DNA from: a candidate division WOR-3 bacterium
GTDB taxonomy: Bacteria; Hydrothermota; Tepidihabitantia; SM23-42
Direction of reading: 5' to 3'
NCBI GenBank assembly: GCA_020349965.1
Contig: CP070705.1
Location: 2,134,905 to 2,171,599 of the forward strand
DNA: 36,695 bases
Numbering within the stretch: the stretch's first letter is position 1; the number at the start of each line of letters is the position of its first letter. The notes beneath the pieces were generated by a model. The model searched no databases, was not told the origin of the DNA, and worked only from the letters and a program-made list of their open reading frames with translations. Positions 22,656 through 27,369 of the stretch are shown one piece after another. The translations under genes were made by a program, and so were the position numbers.

Positions 22656-24352
22656 CAGTTGGCCCTCGTCATCTCTTTGATCTTGAGCGTGGTTTTCCTT
22701 TTGCCCAGAAATGAGTCCTCAGCCACAGAATAGAGACAGTTGATACGAGTCTTGCCTACTTCTATATCGAGGATATCGTCTGCCCTGTCGTAGGCAATTG
22801 CAGGGAATACCCTGCCATGTTGCCTCAAGGAGATCATCAAATGGTTCTGATTGGCACCGACGACCCGCGGCACGCCGACGACTTCGAGGTTTTCACCAAG
22901 AAATGTCGGTTGGGGGTTGGCGATGCCGGTTGGCTCGAAGAATCTCAGGAAATGAACTACATCACTGGTCAGATGGGGAAGATCGAGTTGCATATCATAG
23001 AAACTGCATTTCTCAAATAGCGAGCCCTCGAATCTCTGGGCATATTCATTCACACAGACTTTGAATCGGTCGAGTTTATCAATGTGGAGTTCGACTCCGG
23101 CAGCTTGGGCGTGACCGCCATATTTCTTCAGGATTTCCCCACACGTCCCAATCGCTGCAGTGATGTCAAACCCGGGTATGGAACGTGCCGAGCCTTTGAC
23201 CGTATCGTTTCTGATCGTCATTATGATGACCGGGCGGAAATAATCGGAGGCTATGCGCGAAGCAACGATCCCGAGCACGCCTTCGTGCCAGCCTGTATGG
23301 GCTAGTACAATGACACGGTTTTGTGCAGTCTCTGCTGCTTGTATCATGGATACTGCGGCGCGATATGTCTCGTCCTGTACTTCCTTCCTCGTTTCGTTGT
23401 CCACGGAAAGACTCCGGGCGATTTTGAGGGCACGGGACATATCTTGCGTTAGAAAGAGTTCCAGCGCGTTCTGCGCATCATGCATTCGGCCGCAGGCATT
23501 TATGCGCGGACCAACGATGAAGCCGAGATGGTGCGCGTTGATCTCACCGGACAAACCTGTTTCTTTCAGCAGCGCCTTAATGCCTTTCTTATTGCTCCTT
23601 TGCATGCGATTCATACCGTACTTGATGAGAGTCCGGTTCTCGTCGATGAGCGGCACGATATCAACCACACTTCCGAGAGCGACGAGATCCAGATCTTTAT
23701 GGAGTTCTGCAACCGGTAGATCTAACTTTTTGTAGAGGGCGCTGAGTAATTTGAATGCGACGCCGACCCCGGCAAGTTCCTTGAATGGATAATTGCTGCC
23801 AGGTAATTTTGGGTTAATGAGAGCCAGTGCTGGAGGAAGGTCTTCTCTGGGTACGTGATGGTCGCATACGATGATATCTACGTTACGTTCATGTGCTAGT
23901 GCGATTTCGGTCAGTGCGCTGCTTCCGCAGTCGACTGTAATGACAAGCGTTCGTCGATCTGCGACTGCTTTCTCTATGCCATTGATTGACAGTCCATAAC
24001 CCTCTTCGAGTCGGTGCGGAATGTAGCAGTCAACGTCGAGACCGAAGCGCCTCAGGTTTGTCGTCAATAGGGCCGTCCCGGTGATTCCGTCTGCATCATA
24101 GTCGCCGTGGATCATGATTTTTTCTTTCTTCCTTATGGCGTCGATGATGCGTGCAACGGCTCTGTCCATGTCTTGCAGGAGAAATGGATCATGAAGGTCA
24201 GATAGTGACGGCGCAAAGAACTTCTCTATTGACCGGGGTGTGTAATAACCCCGGTTCTTTAGGATCTGAACTATGGGCGGCGGTATCCGCTTGCCTCTGA
24301 TCATGATGGCGGATGCTGTGCCCTGACTATTTTTAGATTCCCATCTGGTCAT
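22655..24352 (-). CDS. recJ: Single-stranded DNA exonuclease RecJ
   Basis: HGDYDADG, ITVDCG, CDHH, PRINACGR, GSARS and GGHAQAAG. The ATG at 24352 is preferred over the TTG at 24364 because of the promoter position. Confidence 0.96.
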   Translation of the reverse strand: MTRWESKNSQGTASAIMIRGKRIPPPIVQILKNRGYYTPRSIEKFFAPSLSDLHDPFLLQDMDRAVARIIDAIRKKEKIMIHGDYDADGITGTALLTTNLRRFGLDVDCYIPHRLEEGYGLSINGIEKAVADRRTLVITVDCGSSALTEIALAHERNVDIIVCDHHVPREDLPPALALINPKLPGSNYPFKELAGVGVAFKLLSALYKKLDLPVAELHKDLDLVALGSVVDIVPLIDENRTLIKYGMNRMQRSNKKGIKALLKETGLSGEINAHHLGFIVGPRINACGRMHDAQNALELFLTQDMSRALKIARSLSVDNETRKEVQDETYRAAVSMIQAAETAQNRVIVLAHTGWHEGVLGIVASRIASDYFRPVIIMTIRNDTVKGSARSIPGFDITAAIGTCGEILKKYGGHAQAAGVELHIDKLDRFKVCVNEYAQRFEGSLFEKCSFYDMQLDLPHLTSDVVHFLRFFEPTGIANPQPTFLGENLEVVGVPRVVGANQNHLMISLRQHGRVFPAIAYDRADDILDIEVGKTRINCLYSVAEDSFLGKRKTTLKIKEMTRAN

Positions 24353-24366
24353 GAGTGGATGCAATT

Positions 24367-24395
24367 ATGATAGCTAAGTGCATCAATGCTGTCAA
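24367..24395 (-). promoter_or_regulatory. Sigma70-type promoter of the recJ operon
   Basis: TTGACA-17 nt-TATCAT. Confidence 0.6.
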
Positions 24396-24405
24396 TGAAT
24401 CAGAT

Positions 24406-24966
24406 GTGGGGTAATCTATAAGCCGGGTTCTGTAGTTGATAGCCATTTCTCTTGTTCCGGCATCACTGCCGGATTCTGCGCAACCTACCCGTTCCAGCCC
24501 TGGCCGCTTTTGACGGCAGGAAGAGGCGGGCCACCTCTACTGGAACTGCTTGGTTTTGCTTCGGATGGGGTTTGCCGTACCTCTGATGTCACCATCAGAG
24601 TGGTGAGCTCTTACCTCGCCATTTCACCCTTACCCAGCACCTTTGGTGGCACAACAGGCTTTGCATTGATGCCGTGTTCAATTCAACCCGTCTGACCAAA
24701 GCGCCTGGTCATGGCCTATGGCTGCAGCATTGAGATCGCCTGTAATCTTTGCATCAAGATCACCAACATCTTGTCTCTGAAGGACGCAGAAATTTCCTTC
24801 AAGCGATCGTTCTATCAATCTCATGTGCCACCAAAGGTGCTGGGCGGTATGTTTTCTGTGGCACTTTCCTCCCGCACACAAAGTGCGGGGCTTCCAGTTA
24901 GGAAGCATCCTGCCCTGTGAAGCCCGGACTTTCCTCTCACATGGAGCGGCTATCCGATTACCCCAC
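24406..24966 (-). ncRNA. rnpB: RNase P RNA, type A, with a greatly expanded P12 (about 561 nt)
   Basis: Conserved regions GAGGAAAGUCCGGGC, AGUGCCACAGAAA, GGUAAGGGUGAAA, GGCAAACC and ACAGAACCCGGCUUA; P1 pairs GUGGGGUAAUC with GAUUACCCCAC. Confidence 0.97.
24633..24844. repeat. Perfect 21-bp inverted repeat enclosing 170 nt within rnpB P12
   Basis: cccagcacctttggtggcaca (24633-24653) and tgtgccaccaaaggtgctggg (24824-24844) are exact reverse complements. Confidence 0.95.
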
Positions 24967-24971
24967 GGGTG

Positions 24972-25000
24972 ATTATAGCTGCACTGCATATTTTTGTCAA
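24972..25000 (-). promoter_or_regulatory. rnpB promoter
   Basis: Perfect TTGACA-17 nt-TATAAT ending 5 nt before the 5' end of P1. Confidence 0.85.
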
Positions 25001-25134
25001 TATATCTGCCAGCCTCTCCGAAATTGTTGACTTTTACCAGTGGGATCGTCCGATAGTCCACAAGGATCTCTACTGCTGATCGATGTTCGCACTTACCGTT
25101 AATGTCCTTGGCTATTCAGTCCAAACAGGACGGC

Positions 25135-27144
25135 TTATCGACCATCCGTGCGGTTGTGATTATAAGACAATTGCATGAAGTATGTGCGACGGGGCATGGG
25201 ATAATCGAGGTCAATCAATGTATTGCCGAATTGGAGCGCATAGTCTGTATCGAACAAGTTTTTTATACCGACAGACAATGAGAACGTGTTGAAGAACTTT
25301 CTATTGACAGCAGTGTTGATTACCAGATAATCGTCGAGCACTTTCGTATCCATCGATACAGCTGGATAAGCGTCATAGTTCGCGTAATAATTGAATCGCC
25401 GAGAAGTATACTGTCCGGAAATGTTAAGTCCAAAACCATACGGTAGACTGAAATCGAGCACAGAAGATATGGTGAAATCCGGCGTGAAGGCGGCTGGTCG
25501 CTCTATTTCTTCATAAATTGTCAGAGAAGTATCTGCTATAGCGTCATAATAGTCATAAACGATCTCATCGTTCGTCTGCCGGGCGTTCAGAAAAGTGAGT
25601 TCGATGGCGTGCGCGAGAAAACTGGCTATTTGGTGTTCCAATTCCATGTCCAATCCCTCTATCTTCAAATAGTTGACATTCTGCGGATGCCACAATTTAT
25701 CGTCCCCTGGCAGCCATGCGATCCGATCCTTGACGTTGCGCAGGAAAAACGAGACTGCCGCAAAGAAATTTGGCAGTAGCGAACTCTCGATGCGTATCTC
25801 ATACGCCCAGCCGTGCTCTGGTTTGAGGTCGGGATTACCGGATTGAGGCCAGTAGAGGTCATTGAAGGTTGGTGCACGAAACGTATTTCCGATCGATAAT
25901 TTGAGCCAGATCATTTCAGCAGGCATACAAGAAATACCGATTGCGGGTGAAAGGAAATCGCCGAAGGCTGAATTGCGGTCGTAACGGATGCTTGGCGTTG
26001 CAGATAAAATATCGTGCAGGTTCACTTGCAATTCGGTCCACACGCCGACATTATATGAACTTGCATGCCAGTTCATATCGCCGCTAAGAGTTGAAACAGT
26101 CTTTGTGTGGAGGGTGTCATAGGTTGCGTCGAACCCGAGCGTAAACGCAAGTTTCTCCCAGCGCATGTTCAGCATTGCGTTGAAGCCGAGCATGTGAGTC
26201 AGATAATCATATTCTTCGCTTATTGTATCACCTGACCACCATCCTCCGTAAGTAGTACTGAATATTGTACGCTTCCGGTCAGCAAGAATCTTGCCTTGCC
26301 ACAATGCATCATCCGTAACCTGCAGGTCAACACCAAGATTCACCAGCAGCGAACGATCGATTTGCCGGTCAAAGACCGATGTTGCAGTACTGTCACCGAA
26401 TTGTGGTATTGGATGTAAACTGTCCACGATCGGCGCGGGCCCGGGTATTCCGTATTCCTTCTGGGTGTAGTAGATGAACGAGGAGTATTCTACGCGCTCT
26501 GATTTTTGTACAATTGAGCCACTGACGTTATACCGCGTCAGATCGCTGTTACTTCGTCCACCATCAGAGGTGCCGTAATTAACACCGATATCAAATTGTG
26601 TTTTCTTTACAGGCAGTCCGACTTTGAGAAAGAGATCATTTGTATGCAGCGGATCATCGAGCGCGGGCGTGGAAGGTGCGAATTTCATTGCGATCGTTGG
26701 CATACTCAATTCGCGGCGTGTAATTATATTCACGACGCCGCCGAGCGCATTCGCACCGTAGAGGCTTGAAACCGGTCCTTTGACCACCTCGATTCGCTCG
26801 ATCGTGTTTACATCGATCATACTCAGGTCGGCCATGCCATTGGTGACCGCGTTCAGGTTCTGTCCGTTGACGAGAACGAGGGTACCATTGCTCGGTACCC
26901 CGCGTAATGATATGCCCGTCACCCCGCCTGGCGTGCCGTAGTCTTTGAAATCTATGCCCGCAGCAGCGTTGAGAATTTCACTTAGGCTGATGGGGCTTAG
27001 CTTATCGATATCTTCACGCTCGATGACGATTACCGCAACAGCGGCGTCCTTTAGAAGAGCAGGGTATCGGTTGGCAGTGACTACGACCTCATCCATCTCA
27101 TAGGAGATTTGGTTGAGTAACAGCGACGTTAGTAGAAGTAACAT
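25135..27144 (-). CDS. btuB: TonB-dependent receptor, BtuB-like (probable corrinoid uptake)
   Basis: TonB box DEVVVTANR, plug IERIEVVKGPVSSLYGANALGGVVNIIT, FRAPTFNDLYWP and KNLFD; lies downstream of a cobalamin riboswitch. Confidence 0.88.
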   Translation of the reverse strand: MLLLLTSLLLNQISYEMDEVVVTANRYPALLKDAAVAVIVIEREDIDKLSPISLSEILNAAAGIDFKDYGTPGGVTGISLRGVPSNGTLVLVNGQNLNAVTNGMADLSMIDVNTIERIEVVKGPVSSLYGANALGGVVNIITRRELSMPTIAMKFAPSTPALDDPLHTNDLFLKVGLPVKKTQFDIGVNYGTSDGGRSNSDLTRYNVSGSIVQKSERVEYSSFIYYTQKEYGIPGPAPIVDSLHPIPQFGDSTATSVFDRQIDRSLLVNLGVDLQVTDDALWQGKILADRKRTIFSTTYGGWWSGDTISEEYDYLTHMLGFNAMLNMRWEKLAFTLGFDATYDTLHTKTVSTLSGDMNWHASSYNVGVWTELQVNLHDILSATPSIRYDRNSAFGDFLSPAIGISCMPAEMIWLKLSIGNTFRAPTFNDLYWPQSGNPDLKPEHGWAYEIRIESSLLPNFFAAVSFFLRNVKDRIAWLPGDDKLWHPQNVNYLKIEGLDMELEHQIASFLAHAIELTFLNARQTNDEIVYDYYDAIADTSLTIYEEIERPAAFTPDFTISSVLDFSLPYGFGLNISGQYTSRRFNYYANYDAYPAVSMDTKVLDDYLVINTAVNRKFFNTFSLSVGIKNLFDTDYALQFGNTLIDLDYPMPRRTYFMQLSYNHNRTDGR

Positions 27145-27175
27145 GTTTCCTCCTTTCGTCCGAAGGTTATATGTA

Positions 27176-27335
27176 GCTGGGGATAGGTCTCCTGGCTTAT
27201 CCTGTTCTGATCAGCCTTCCCGTCCGCAGGCAATAAATAAGCGGTAGCAGTGGCTTTCTTTGATCGGAAATAGATGGAATCACAGTGGCGGCGACCGCGG
27301 CCGATTCTCACGGCGCTTCCCTTGAATCCACCAGC
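27176..27335 (-). promoter_or_regulatory. Cobalamin riboswitch
   Basis: AAGGGAAG-CGCCGUGAGAAUCGGC, CCGCCACUGUGA, GCCACUG, GGGAAGGC and B12 box AAGCCAGGAGACCU. A following CCUUCG/CGAAAGG hairpin overlaps the SD, suggesting translational control. Confidence 0.92.
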
Positions 27336-27340
27336 CTGTC

Positions 27341-27369
27341 AGTATACCTTATGTATCAAAGGTTGTCAA
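27341..27369 (-). promoter_or_regulatory. Promoter of the riboswitch-btuB transcript
   Basis: TTGACA-17 nt-TATACT. Confidence 0.75.

What the first reader, a model, noticed from the sequence alone, without database searches (positions are those of the whole stretch)
24633..24844. RNase P RNA with a 212-nt P12 domain: a perfect 21-bp stem enclosing a 170-nt branched insert
Seen: between the conserved ACAGAAAACAUACCG and UAAGGGUGAAA segments, P12 is a perfect 21-bp helix closing a 170-nt insert, which makes the RNA about 561 nt. The insert can fold internally, with pairings at 24665-24670/24814-24819, 24693-24698/24706-24711, 24734-24742/24800-24808, 24755-24760/24768-24773 and 24778-24784/24795-24801 (the last partly overlaps the third). 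All catalytic-core motifs and a perfect promoter are intact, so the gene looks functional. Established: E. coli M1 RNA is 377 nt, and P12 is the variable helix, expanded for example in some cyanobacteria and archaea. Inference: this is either a new structured accessory domain or an intervening sequence excised from the long duplex, as RNase III does for rRNA IVSs, which would give a two-piece RNase P RNA.
Basis: partly seen in the sequence, partly recalled or inferred. Interest (0 to 1): 0.85.

Follow-up and report, generated by a model that had tools for sequence, protein, structure and literature searches.

The report
Decayed endonuclease cassette in RNase P
The oversized P12 arm of this bacterium's RNase P ribozyme is most likely the eroded remnant of a small selfish endonuclease gene that, in related bacteria, still sits intact inside hairpin loops of the same ribozyme gene.

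Summary
Window 24403-24965 (-) is a full-length type A RNase P RNA (255 bits), the only copy in a 2.3-Mb genome. Its P12 is a perfect 21-bp stem around 170 nt.

It is not a one-off. In the same bacterial family, the same hairpin-bounded module sits in P12, P9, P17 or P3 of rnpB. In five places there it is an intact 77-87-aa GIY-YIG ORF (Pfam E 1.7e-11). Where dS is not saturated, dN/dS is 0.08-0.36. The same cassette, with the same ends, also follows tRNA-Ser genes.

The window's insert keeps the cassette's stem, leader, one codon block and tail, but has lost the ORF. Its interior is only 49-66% identical between copies, against 94-95% for the ribozyme core. So it is best read as a decayed cassette, not a selected RNA domain.

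Whether it is cut out was not testable. Excision of a P12 expansion, giving a two-piece RNase P RNA, is published for Thermodesulfatator indicus (PMC9945441). GIY-YIG ORFs in non-intron rRNA insertions are published for CPR bacteria (PMC11270868). I found no report of them in rnpB.

The parts
24403..24965 (-). rnpB, bacterial type A RNase P RNA, 563 nt
   Evidence: RF00010 at 255 bits, model 1-367. Only copy in the genome.
24972..25000 (-). sigma-70-type promoter of rnpB (TTGACA, 17-nt spacer, TATAAT)
   Evidence: 12 of 12 consensus matches. This is a consensus match only.
24633..24844 (-). P12 with the cassette relic: a 21-bp closing stem plus a 170-nt interior
   Evidence: Homologous modules in G007 and G010.
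24824..24844 (-). 5' arm of the closing stem. The outer 9 nt are the conserved CCCAGCACC. The inner 12 nt are variable and covary.
   Evidence: 21/21 pairs. Covariation over 16 cassettes.
24633..24653 (-). 3' arm of the closing stem
24816..24823 (-). Cassette leader motif UGAGAUUG, which pairs with 24731-24738
   Evidence: Present in 16 of 16 aligned cassettes, including the ORF-bearing ones. Helix 2 has 99.1% of cells paired, and its last pair is C-G in 9, U-A in 6 and U-G in 1.
24730..24744 (-). Conserved block UACAGGCGAUCUCAA, colinear with the Y-T-S-D-L codons of the intact GIY-YIG ORFs
   Evidence: Alignment A4. Best local match of the interior to the G015 ORF. Coordinates.
24774..24785 (-). 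Block GUCCUUCAGAGA. Ten of its 12 positions are invariant in the five short modules. It is colinear with the I-L-K-K codons of the ORF.
24653..24660 (-). Cassette tail AGCCUGUU, colinear with the last S-L codons of the intact ORFs, running into the 3' arm

Best explanation
The 212-nt P12 is the ordinary P12 hairpin of a working RNase P RNA carrying, at its tip, the eroded ORF-less remnant of a small hairpin-bounded gene cassette.

In its intact form the cassette has five parts: a ~20-bp closing stem, a leader (UGAGAUY), a ribosome-binding site, a 77-87-aa single-domain GIY-YIG (UPF0213-like) nuclease ORF, and a tail whose last codons form the 3' arm of the stem. In this bacterial family, which a source's protein name places in candidate division TA06, the cassette lives only in stable-RNA transcription units: in terminal loops of rnpB helices (P3, P9, P12, P17) and just 3' of tRNA-Ser genes.

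The closing stem simply lengthens the host helix, so the ribozyme core folds as usual and the insertion is tolerated without any intron. That step is inferred. In the window's genome the middle of the ORF has been lost and what remains evolves roughly neutrally. The exceptions are the stem, the leader/codon-block helix and a few short blocks.

Shown here: the anatomy, the homologous modules, the intact ORFs in relatives, purifying selection on those ORFs, and covariation of the stem.

Inferred: descent of the window's copy from an ORF-bearing cassette; that the insert does nothing for catalysis; and its fate in the RNA. I put retention as a passive expansion at about 0.45 and excision at the long duplex at about 0.4.
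For: (1) Same module, different helices. After aligning 19 rnpB genes, modules with the same ends sit in P12 (G000, G007, G010, G009, G013, G015, G016), P9 (G010, G009, G018, G013) and P17 (G007, G009).

(2) Intact ORFs inside rnpB on the RNA strand: G015 P12, G012 P9 and P3, G045 P9, G044 P9. They are 49-66% identical to the G015 ORF. The G015 ORF hits Pfam GIY-YIG at E 1.7e-11. The closest solved structures are the UPF0213 proteins 1zg2 and 1ywl.

(3) dN/dS is 0.08-0.36 in the 9 of 36 ORF pairs where dS was estimable. The other 27 pairs were saturated.

(4) The same cassette ends occur outside rnpB, directly 3' of tRNA-Ser genes. An exact 5'-end pattern gave 15 hits in 31 family genomes against 1 control hit: 11 in rnpB, 3 beside tRNA-Ser, and 1 with masked upstream sequence.

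(5) The window's insert aligns with ORF-bearing cassettes through the stem, leader, first ~24 codons' length, Y-T-S-D-L block and tail, with the middle missing. The distance from leader to that block is 82-86 nt in the 10 modules measured. A profile built only from 4 non-rnpB cassettes places its 2nd and 3rd best genome-wide hits on the two ends of the insert, colinear and on the right strand. A profile of the five short modules hits the G015 ORF N-terminus at E 0.023.

(6) A decay series exists. The G013 P9 copy has one TGA and the G007 tRNA-Ser copy one TAA. The G016 P12 copy keeps 35 codons with one TAG. Then come the ~170-nt modules, the 93-109-nt forms in G009 and bare hairpins.

(7) Stem covariation over 16 cassettes: 95.3% of cells paired against 83.9 +/- 1.0 in shuffles (0 of 500 reach it). 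There are 56 double-change cells against 17.9 +/- 3.3 (0 of 500). Slid controls give 33-49% paired.

(8) Module interiors are 49-66% identical, against 94-95% for the rnpB core and 68-74% for flanking genes.
Against: Direct homology of the window's interior to the ORF is weak. hhalign of the 48-aa reading of the insert against the ORF profile found nothing (probability 0.1%). An ORF-only DNA profile did not hit the insert at all at E <= 100. In an interior-only local-alignment test, 4 of 5 short modules gave z of 2.3-3.0 and one gave 0.13. For G000, 3 of 300 shuffles reached the observed score. The two end hits are individually non-significant (E 1.3 and 10).

The five ~170-nt modules share several invariant blocks and the same length at three different helices. 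Plain neutral decay does not explain that.

The outer stem (CCCGCACC/GGUGCGGG-like) also resembles the native short P12 and P9 hairpins of cassette-free relatives. Where the host ends and the cassette begins is therefore not settled.

No RNA data show what the mature RNA looks like.
Confidence: 0.78

Rival explanations
1. Excised intervening sequence. The 21-bp perfect duplex is cut (by RNase III or another ubiquitous RNase), the insert is discarded, and the cell runs on a two-piece RNase P RNA held together by the remaining P12 base pairs and tertiary structure. This concerns the insert's fate and is compatible with the cassette origin.
For: The 21/21 duplex sits at the tip of a stable-RNA hairpin. 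The genome encodes RNase III in a 233-aa open frame at 107.9 bits. Distribution among close relatives is sporadic, as for rRNA IVSs: 4 of 11 genus genomes. There is a published precedent: the T. indicus P12 expansion is excised in vivo and in E. coli, giving 5' and 3' fragments (PMC9945441, passages read). In CPR bacteria, the GIY-YIG ORFs found in rRNA genes all lie in insertions that resemble neither group I nor group II introns. That paper likens other, short non-intron insertions at two known 23S IVS sites to RNase III-cleaved IVSs (PMC11270868, passages read).
Against: Nothing here shows cleavage. The 'joints' in the read-laying skip ~206-208 nt, but they also occur in DNA runs and carry other letters between the two sides. 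They are therefore other organisms' short P12 hairpins, not spliced or cut forms. The T. indicus cuts lie in an A/U-rich part of P12, whereas this stem has 13 G/C of 21 positions.
Confidence: 0.4
2. The ~170-nt form is a non-autonomous (MITE-like) derivative that itself spreads between rnpB hairpins, mobilised or copied with help from an intact GIY-YIG copy elsewhere. Its invariant blocks would then be cis-acting sites, not leftovers.
For: Five copies of nearly the same length (171-172 nt between leader and tail) occupy P9, P12 and P17 in three genomes. Copy-to-copy identity does not follow the insertion site: G007 P12 against G010 P9 is 73%, the highest of 10 pairs. G010 still has an intact free ORF at 124 bits. 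Several blocks are invariant in all five copies.
Against: Copy number is tiny, at 1-4 5'-end hits per genome in the 7 of 31 genomes that have any. The window's genome has one module copy only and no close intact ORF; its best match is a distant 44-bit gene at C1:1641463-1641678. No target-site duplication is visible at the P12 junctions. Gene conversion between hairpins of one gene could give the same pattern.
Confidence: 0.3
3. A selected, structured accessory RNA domain of RNase P (for example for folding, localisation or partner binding), now independent of its origin.
For: Strong predicted folding: z = -7.3. The leader/codon-block helix and a hairpin (A3 columns 46-50 with 61-65) are kept in the five short modules. 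In T. indicus, replacing the expanded P12 by a short one impaired complementation (PMC9945441).
Against: The interior evolves no more slowly than flanking protein-coding DNA. The covariation term is -0.6 kcal/mol. Seven of 11 genomes of the genus, including ones with ~90% core identity, do without it. No Rfam family matches the insert at E <= 10, apart from two chance hits on the opposite strand.
Confidence: 0.08
4. The insert encodes a 48-aa micro-protein (AUG at 24822-24824 to the stop at 24678-24680).
For: The frame is open in G000. A frame of similar length opens from the same AUG in G010 P12 (48 aa), and the G010 P9 copy also reads on from that AUG.
Against: No Pfam hit at E <= 1. The frame is broken or shifted in both G007 copies. 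No ribosome-binding site is evident, because the AUG lies at the foot of the 21-bp stem. The peptides are poorly conserved.
Confidence: 0.03

Closest known systems
P12 expansion segment of Thermodesulfatator indicus RNase P RNA (PMC9945441; abstract and passages read)
   Same: A bacterial type A RNase P RNA with a much enlarged P12, absent from the closest relative. In T. indicus the distal P12 is removed after transcription, leaving a fragmented but functional RNA.
   Different: About 87 nt longer than a short P12, against about 190 nt here. Cleavage lies in an A/U-rich stretch. The passages I read make no link to an ORF or mobile element ('insertion' occurs 0 times in that text). Excision here is untested.
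GIY-YIG-encoding, non-intron insertion sequences in 16S/23S rRNA genes of CPR bacteria (PMC11270868; passages read)
   Same: Small GIY-YIG ORFs lie inside stable-RNA genes. In that paper's overall survey most insertions sit at the top or base of stem-loops, and those carrying GIY-YIG ORFs resemble neither group I nor group II introns. The closest database relatives of the rnpB ORFs (about 50-57% identity) carry names from Parcubacteria-type MAGs. In my own sample the ORF lay inside LSU rRNA in 5 of 40 Rfam-scanned metagenome loci, again bounded by 13-20-bp stems.
   Different: The host RNA here is RNase P RNA (and tRNA-Ser trailers), and the lineage is TA06-like, not CPR. 'RNase P' occurs 0 times in that paper. 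The window's copy has lost its ORF.
RNase III-processed intervening sequences of 23S rRNA (Salmonella, Coxiella and others; as summarised in PMC11270868, and the abstract of PMC4990558 in the listing)
   Same: Extra stem-loops at hairpin tips of an essential stable RNA, sporadic among relatives, sometimes carrying an ORF, closed by a long duplex.
   Different: Those are in rRNA helices 25 and 45 (helix numbers partly recalled) and are shown to be cut. Their ORFs are S23p/IVP-type, not GIY-YIG.
Free-standing GIY-YIG homing endonuclease SegB in the phage T4 tRNA gene cluster (PMC2330249; abstract in the listing only)
   Same: A GIY-YIG gene living among tRNA genes without an intron.
   Different: The Seg protein is recalled (not from any call) to be larger, with a DNA-binding domain. 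It is a phage protein with no hairpin-bounded cassette. The ORFs here are 77-87-aa single domains whose nuclease or homing activity is untested.
UPF0213 single-domain GIY-YIG proteins (PDB 1zg2 BH0048, 1ywl EF2693)
   Same: Best solved-structure matches of the ORF profile: E 2.1e-11 and 5.1e-06.
   Different: Those are annotated as hypothetical proteins. I know of no stable-RNA context for them (not checked).

Membership tests
Bacterial RNase P RNA, type A (RF00010) | Full-length covariance-model match above the gathering score | tested here: met
   255 bits against 100, model 1-367.
Bacterial RNase P RNA, type A (RF00010) | Conserved core segments (P4 strands, J11/12, J12/13) present | tested here: met
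   GAGGAAAGUCCGG, ACAGAAAA, AAGGGUGAAA and ACAGAACCCGGCUUA are all aligned at high posterior probability.
Bacterial RNase P RNA, type A (RF00010) | Protein partner RnpA encoded; sole rnpB copy | tested here: met
   PF00825 hit at 57.7 bits. One RF00010 hit in the genome.
Bacterial RNase P RNA, type A (RF00010) | Pre-tRNA 5' cleavage activity | not testable with these tools
   Needs an assay.
Hairpin-bounded GIY-YIG gene cassette of stable-RNA genes | ORF with a GIY-YIG catalytic domain | tested here: not met
   The window's 48-aa frame has no Pfam hit at E <= 1 and no hhalign match. It is met in relatives at the same and other rnpB helices. The window's copy is therefore a relic, not a member with an ORF.
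Hairpin-bounded GIY-YIG gene cassette of stable-RNA genes | Shared cassette ends: outer stem, covarying inner stem, UGAGAUY leader paired to the RAUCUCA codon block, AGCCUUGU-type tail | tested here: met
   Alignment of 16 cassettes, pair counts, end hits from a non-rnpB profile.
Hairpin-bounded GIY-YIG gene cassette of stable-RNA genes | Interior colinear with, and homologous to, the ORF | tested here: inconclusive
   E 0.023 to the G015 ORF N-terminus and z = 2.9. However, the ORF-only profile gives no hit.
Hairpin-bounded GIY-YIG gene cassette of stable-RNA genes | Endonuclease activity and homing into empty sites | not testable with these tools
   Only presence/absence polymorphism at identical sites is seen.
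RNase III-type intervening sequence of a stable RNA | Insertion at a hairpin tip, closed by a duplex of about 20 bp or more | tested here: met
   21/21 Watson-Crick pairs in the P12 loop.
RNase III-type intervening sequence of a stable RNA | Sporadic among close relatives | tested here: met
   Expanded P12 in 4 of 11 genus genomes and in 7 of 29 family genomes with a readable P12.
RNase III-type intervening sequence of a stable RNA | Excised in vivo without religation | not testable with these tools
   The runs available are contigs only. No informative cover or joint.
T. indicus-type excised P12 expansion | Expansion located in P12 of a type A RNA | tested here: met
T. indicus-type excised P12 expansion | A/U-rich cleavage zone above a lower P12 stem | tested here: inconclusive
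   The stem has 13 G/C of 21 positions with a central UUU/AAA. The interior GC is 0.47.
Group I / group II intron | Match to an intron covariance model | tested here: not met
   No such hit at E <= 10 in window 24300-25100, nor at E <= 1 in five cassette-bearing loci.
Dispersed MITE-like palindromic repeat | Many dispersed copies in the genome | tested here: not met
   One copy in the own genome by BLAST and by nhmmer. 15 hits in 31 genomes, all in rnpB or beside tRNA-Ser except one with masked upstream sequence.

The most novel reading that the evidence does not exclude
In this TA06-like family the RNase P ribozyme gene is a habitat for working protein genes. Up to two intact GIY-YIG ORFs under purifying selection sit in the loops of one essential rnpB gene (G012: P3 and P9), with no intron. 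They would be transcribed from the rnpB promoter and translated from, or after release from, the ribozyme precursor. The ~20-bp closing stems would serve both to preserve the host helix and as processing sites. Such cells would then assemble RNase P from two to four RNA pieces. The nuclease would home to the palindromic hairpin-coding sites of stable-RNA genes. The window's P12 would be the fossil of that cycle.
Probability: 0.35. Interest if true: 0.85.

Novelty: new variant of a known kind. Interest (0 to 1): 0.62.

Why it matters
RNase P RNA is usually treated as a compact, conserved ribozyme whose variable helices merely differ in length. Here the length variation has a concrete cause: a selfish gene cassette that uses hairpin loops of the ribozyme as safe insertion sites, as was known only for rRNA.

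- It gives an origin for at least some large 'expansion segments' of RNase P RNA. It suggests that other unexplained P12 expansions, including the excised one of T. indicus, be examined for the same ancestry.
- It supplies natural test cases for how much extra RNA, and perhaps how much fragmentation, the ribozyme tolerates at P3, P9, P12 and P17. In some of these the L9 tetraloop, recalled to dock on P1, is displaced.
- It has a practical side. Such inserts lower covariance-model scores and split hits (201.9-255 bits with modules, and partial matches in G004, G018 and G044, against 260-273 bits for six insert-free genus relatives). The ORFs inside are annotated as stand-alone hypothetical proteins.

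Tried and rejected
- Taxon. A scan of named genomes with the neighbouring RecJ protein gave only distant relatives, at most 41% identity, mostly Bacteroidota-type MAGs plus one Calditrichota MAG. A guess of green sulfur bacteria was dropped: no FMO-protein hit, although the control rang nowhere, so this is weak. The only placement I have is a source's name, 'candidate division TA06', on a protein identical to the G015 ORF.
- RNA evidence for excision. Of four runs laid, the two RNA runs gave no cover of 24667-24822, although one held an exact 148-nt contig of the 3' part of rnpB. All were contigs, so this says nothing about excision. The ~206-208-nt 'skips' occur in DNA runs too and have foreign letters between the sides, so they are other organisms' short P12. 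Small-share runs were not used for any claim.
- Protein-level link of the window's insert to GIY-YIG: none found.
- An ORF-only DNA profile against the genome did not hit the insert.
- A cassette profile that included 60 nt of rnpB flank was discarded as circular.
- Known RNA families in the insert or cassettes: none, apart from chance hits.
- A dispersed repeat in the own genome: no.
- Long rnpB genes elsewhere in the class. Fourteen loci were fetched (G082, 650 nt, and others). None holds a GIY-YIG-like ORF, and the P12 of six measured there is about 80-130 nt. The cassette was therefore found only in family f1 among the 132 class genomes searched.
- Literature. Searches found no paper placing a GIY-YIG ORF or a homing endonuclease in a bacterial rnpB gene. 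The hits were fungal mitogenomes, CPR rRNA and T. indicus. Supplementary files were not opened and may hold relevant tables, for example Table S4 of PMC11270868.
- The first pattern search used the wrong spacer length and found only one chance hit. It was corrected.
Full report
OBSERVATION. Rfam places a complete bacterial type A RNase P RNA on the minus strand at 24403-24965: 563 nt, 255 bits against a gathering score of 100, model positions 1-367. All conserved core segments align at high confidence. The P12 hairpin of the model is interrupted by one long insertion.

On the RNA strand, 24824-24844 pairs with 24633-24653 in 21 of 21 Watson-Crick pairs. The 212-nt segment folds at -93.2 kcal/mol with z = -7.3. 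A 12-of-12 sigma-70 consensus promoter ends 6 nt upstream of the RNA.

The gene is the only RF00010 hit in a 2.30-Mb single-contig genome, which also encodes RnpA and RNase III. A public DNA contig of 260 nt spans 24612-24871 without a mismatch. It may come from the source sample, so it is weak as independent support. Stronger support comes from two other assemblies, which carry a homologous insert at the same place (below).

RELATIVES. I searched 41 related genomes with RF00010, then all 31 genomes held for the family. Within the genus, seven genomes have a P12 of 27-31 nt between the two anchor motifs (G001, G002, G003, G004, G005, G006, G008). Four have a long one: G000 at 221 nt, G007 and G010 at 220, and G009 at 109. 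In the family, 7 of 29 genomes with a readable P12 exceed 100 nt, adding G013, G015 and G016. G019 had no hit and G021 gave only fragments.

Total rnpB length reaches 743-791 nt in G009, G007 and G010, because further large inserts sit in other helices.

ONE MODULE, SEVERAL HELICES. An alignment of 19 rnpB genes and extraction of the inserts show that these inserts are copies of one module. It has a closing stem beginning CCCGCACC (CCCAGCACC in P12 of G000, G007 and G010), a leader AUAUGAGAUC, a block ACAAGCGAUCUCA about 85 nt further on (spacing 82-86 nt in the 10 modules measured), a tail CAGCCUUGUUAU, and the complementary arm ending GGUGCGGG.

It occupies P12 (G000, G007, G010, G009, G013, G015, G016), the P9 hairpin (G010, G009, G018, G013) and the P17 hairpin (G007, G009). 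Helix names come from my reading of the Rfam structure line. In P17 of G007 the module replaces a hairpin of unrelated sequence. It therefore brings its own outer stem.

AN ORF INSIDE. The long P12 module of G015 translates, on the RNA strand, to an uninterrupted 80-aa protein preceded by GGAG. Pfam scores it as a GIY-YIG catalytic domain: E 1.7e-11, 44.7 bits against a cut-off of 22.6.

Fetching the remaining long or oddly matched rnpB genes of the family revealed four more intact ORFs of 77-87 aa inside rnpB: G012 in P9 and in P3, G045 in P9, and G044 in P9. The five are 49-66% identical to the G015 ORF, and 31 alignment columns are invariant. From recalled knowledge, those columns include the Tyr, Tyr, Arg, His and Glu positions expected of the GIY-YIG fold.

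The nearest solved structures are the single-domain UPF0213 proteins 1zg2 and 1ywl. NCBIfam gave only a sub-threshold group I intron endonuclease hit for one of the two ORFs scanned.

For the 9 of 36 pairs among nine intact ORFs where dS could be estimated, dN/dS is 0.08-0.36. The other 27 pairs were saturated. These are therefore protein genes under purifying selection, nested in a ribozyme gene.

Two sub-types exist, with different end sequences but the same plan. Neither matches an intron or any other Rfam family.

THE CASSETTE OUTSIDE rnpB. A profile of the five ORFs was searched in six frames against the 31 family genomes. The closest copies outside rnpB lie directly 3' of tRNA-Ser genes: G013 contig 4, G012 contig 32, and G007 contig 37, the last with an in-frame TAA. 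They have the same ends as the rnpB copies, starting immediately after the tRNA.

An exact pattern for the 5' end gave 15 hits in the 31 genomes against 1 hit for the reversed control. Eleven lie in rnpB, three beside tRNA-Ser, and one in G010 has withheld upstream sequence. The cassette is thus low-copy and confined to stable-RNA transcription units.

The window's own genome has relics of the cassette 3' of three of its four tRNA-Ser genes. Its only intact small GIY-YIG gene is a distant one at 44 bits.

IS THE WINDOW'S INSERT A DECAYED CASSETTE? In favour:
- In a 16-cassette alignment the five ~170-nt modules (G000 P12; G007 P12 and P17; G010 P9 and P12) align with ORF-bearing cassettes through the stem, the leader, a stretch the length of the first ~24 codons, the Y-T-S-D-L block and the tail, with the middle missing.
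- G015 carries the intact form at the very same P12 site.
- A profile made only from four non-rnpB cassettes puts its second and third best genome-wide hits on the two ends of the insert, colinear and on the right strand.
- The short-module profile hits the N-terminal coding part of the G015 ORF at E 0.023.
- Intermediates exist. There are copies with one stop codon. The G016 P12 insert still scores 45 bits over 35 codons with one TAG. Forms of 93-109 nt occur in G009.

Against:
- hhalign of the 48-aa frame found nothing.
- An ORF-only DNA profile did not reach the insert.
- An interior-only shuffle test gave z = 2.9 for G000 (3 of 300 shuffles as high) and 0.13 for one of the five modules.

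I conclude descent from the cassette with about 0.8 confidence. That rests mainly on the shared ends, order, spacing and site.

STRUCTURE AND CONSTRAINT. Over the 16 cassettes, the 22-bp closing stem and the 7-bp leader/codon-block helix are paired in 95.3% of cells, against 83.9 +/- 1.0 in shuffles (0 of 500 as high). There are 56 double-change cells against 17.9 +/- 3.3 (0 of 500). Slid controls give 33-49% paired. Ten of the 22 stem pairs show compensatory changes, and the last leader pair is C-G in 9, U-A in 6 and U-G in 1. The tool warns that relatedness inflates such counts.

The outer 8-9 bp hardly vary, while the inner 12 bp vary freely but stay paired.

The interior looks unconstrained by contrast. 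The five short modules are 49-66% identical there, while the rnpB cores of the same three genomes are 94-95% identical. The flanking TonB-receptor and recJ genes are 74% and 68% identical between G000 and G007. RNAalifold gives a covariation term of -0.6 kcal/mol.

This speaks against a selected accessory domain. What plain decay leaves unexplained is the equal length of the five modules and the several blocks that are invariant or nearly so. This is why I keep a MITE-like spread of the short form as a live rival.

WIDER PICTURE. Among 132 genomes of the class, long rnpB genes occur in other families. The 14 I fetched hold no GIY-YIG-like ORF, and the P12 of six measured there is about 80-130 nt.

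The ORF family itself is very large. At least 7,900 of the 8,000 scored candidates reach E <= 1e-8. Close members bear names from Parcubacteria-type MAGs, and a protein identical to the G015 ORF is named from candidate division TA06.

Of 80 metagenome loci encoding close relatives, I scanned 40 with Rfam. The ORF lies inside an RF00010 hit in 4, just downstream of one in 1, inside LSU rRNA in 5, and at the 3' end of SSU rRNA in 1. At least two of the four rnpB-embedded loci appear to be the same sequences as family genomes already counted, so they are not all independent. Two further loci show the 3' arm abutting the P4 motif, that is a P3 position, without an Rfam hit. Fourteen of the 16 loci inspected show an ungapped stem of 11-21 bp around the ORF.

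LITERATURE. Schwarz et al. (PMC9945441; abstract and passages) show that the T. indicus RNase P RNA has a P12 expansion that is excised in vivo and in E. coli, leaving a fragmented RNA. They suspect RNase E or RNase III.

Tsurumaki et al. (PMC11270868; passages) report that in CPR rRNA genes all GIY-YIG proteins are encoded by insertions resembling neither intron class. They also note that short non-intron insertions coincide with known RNase III IVS sites. RNase P is not mentioned there.

Lui et al. (PMC8172020; passages) note large helix extensions in CPR RNase P RNAs.

None of my seven searches turned up a GIY-YIG or other endonuclease ORF in a bacterial rnpB gene. Supplements were closed.

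FATE OF THE INSERT. This is untested. The runs available were contigs. The RNA runs do not cover the insert, and the apparent skips are other organisms' short P12 hairpins.

From recalled structural work on type A RNase P RNA, the distal end of P12 points away from the core and the L13 contact uses the proximal stem. A tip insertion should therefore be tolerated either way.

VERDICT. This is a real and confirmed feature. It is not a new RNA domain. It is the fossil of a hairpin-bounded GIY-YIG gene cassette that colonises stable-RNA genes. That kind of element is known from CPR rRNA but, as far as my searches show, not from RNase P RNA. The window's copy is the least interesting member of an interesting series. 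The intact ORFs nested in rnpB of its relatives are the part worth following up.

Noticed in passing
window 27165-27366 (-) and 25135-27144 (-): A cobalamin riboswitch (RF00174, 62.6 bits) lies directly upstream of a 669-aa TonB-dependent receptor (Plug plus beta-barrel), a BtuB-like arrangement. The receptor gene ends about 170 nt upstream of the rnpB promoter.
   Followed up: partly
window 24367-24395 (-): A second near-consensus promoter (TTGACA, 17-nt spacer, TATCAT; 11 of 12) lies immediately after the 3' end of rnpB and just upstream of the recJ start at 24364. No terminator-like site was found after rnpB.
   Followed up: no
own genome, outside the window: C1:393692-393780, C1:1310640-1310755, C1:1310850-1310953: The 3' flanks of tRNA-Ser(cga), tRNA-Ser(gct) and tRNA-Ser(tga) hold fragments of the same cassette: a tail-plus-3'-arm piece, a tail-like piece, and a mini-hairpin with the leader motif in its loop. 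tRNA-Ser(gga) has none.
   Followed up: partly
L146 (G013 contig 16), locus 554-1055: A second, weak rnpB-like locus (115.7 bits). Here an ORF-bearing cassette is flanked on the 5' side by the P2/P3 start and on the 3' side by the P12 3' strand and J12/13, as if recombination between a P3 and a P12 cassette had deleted P4-P11. G013 has 7% contamination, so it may belong to another organism.
   Followed up: no
L129 (G012 contig 8), 537-794 and 899-1129: A single rnpB gene, the only one found in that genome, carries two intact GIY-YIG ORFs of different sub-types, in P3 and in P9. Rfam then aligns only the 3' 357 nt as the 'full' model.
   Followed up: partly
L195, L205, L246, L244, L187 (metagenome loci): Close relatives of the ORF lie inside 23S rRNA genes, each bounded by a 13-20-bp stem. 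In L240 the ORF (one in-frame stop) starts at the 3' end of 16S rRNA. Many other loci have a tRNA gene within 30 nt downstream of the ORF.
   Followed up: partly
L213 (metagenome locus), 1482-1772: An ORF-bearing cassette sits between the 3' strand of P2 and the ACAGAACCCGGCUUA strand of P4. From recall, some type A RNAs have a P19 helix at that position.
   Followed up: no
G082, G113, G109, G096, G131, G062 (other families of the class; L147-L160): ORF-less P12 expansions of about 80-130 nt occur in rnpB genes of 440-650 nt. I did not test whether these are older relics of the same kind.
   Followed up: no
window 24678-25061 (-): The ORF list shows a 127-aa GTG frame running through the rnpB promoter, the 5' half of rnpB and most of the insert. 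It overlaps a confirmed RNA gene and is almost certainly not a gene.
   Followed up: no
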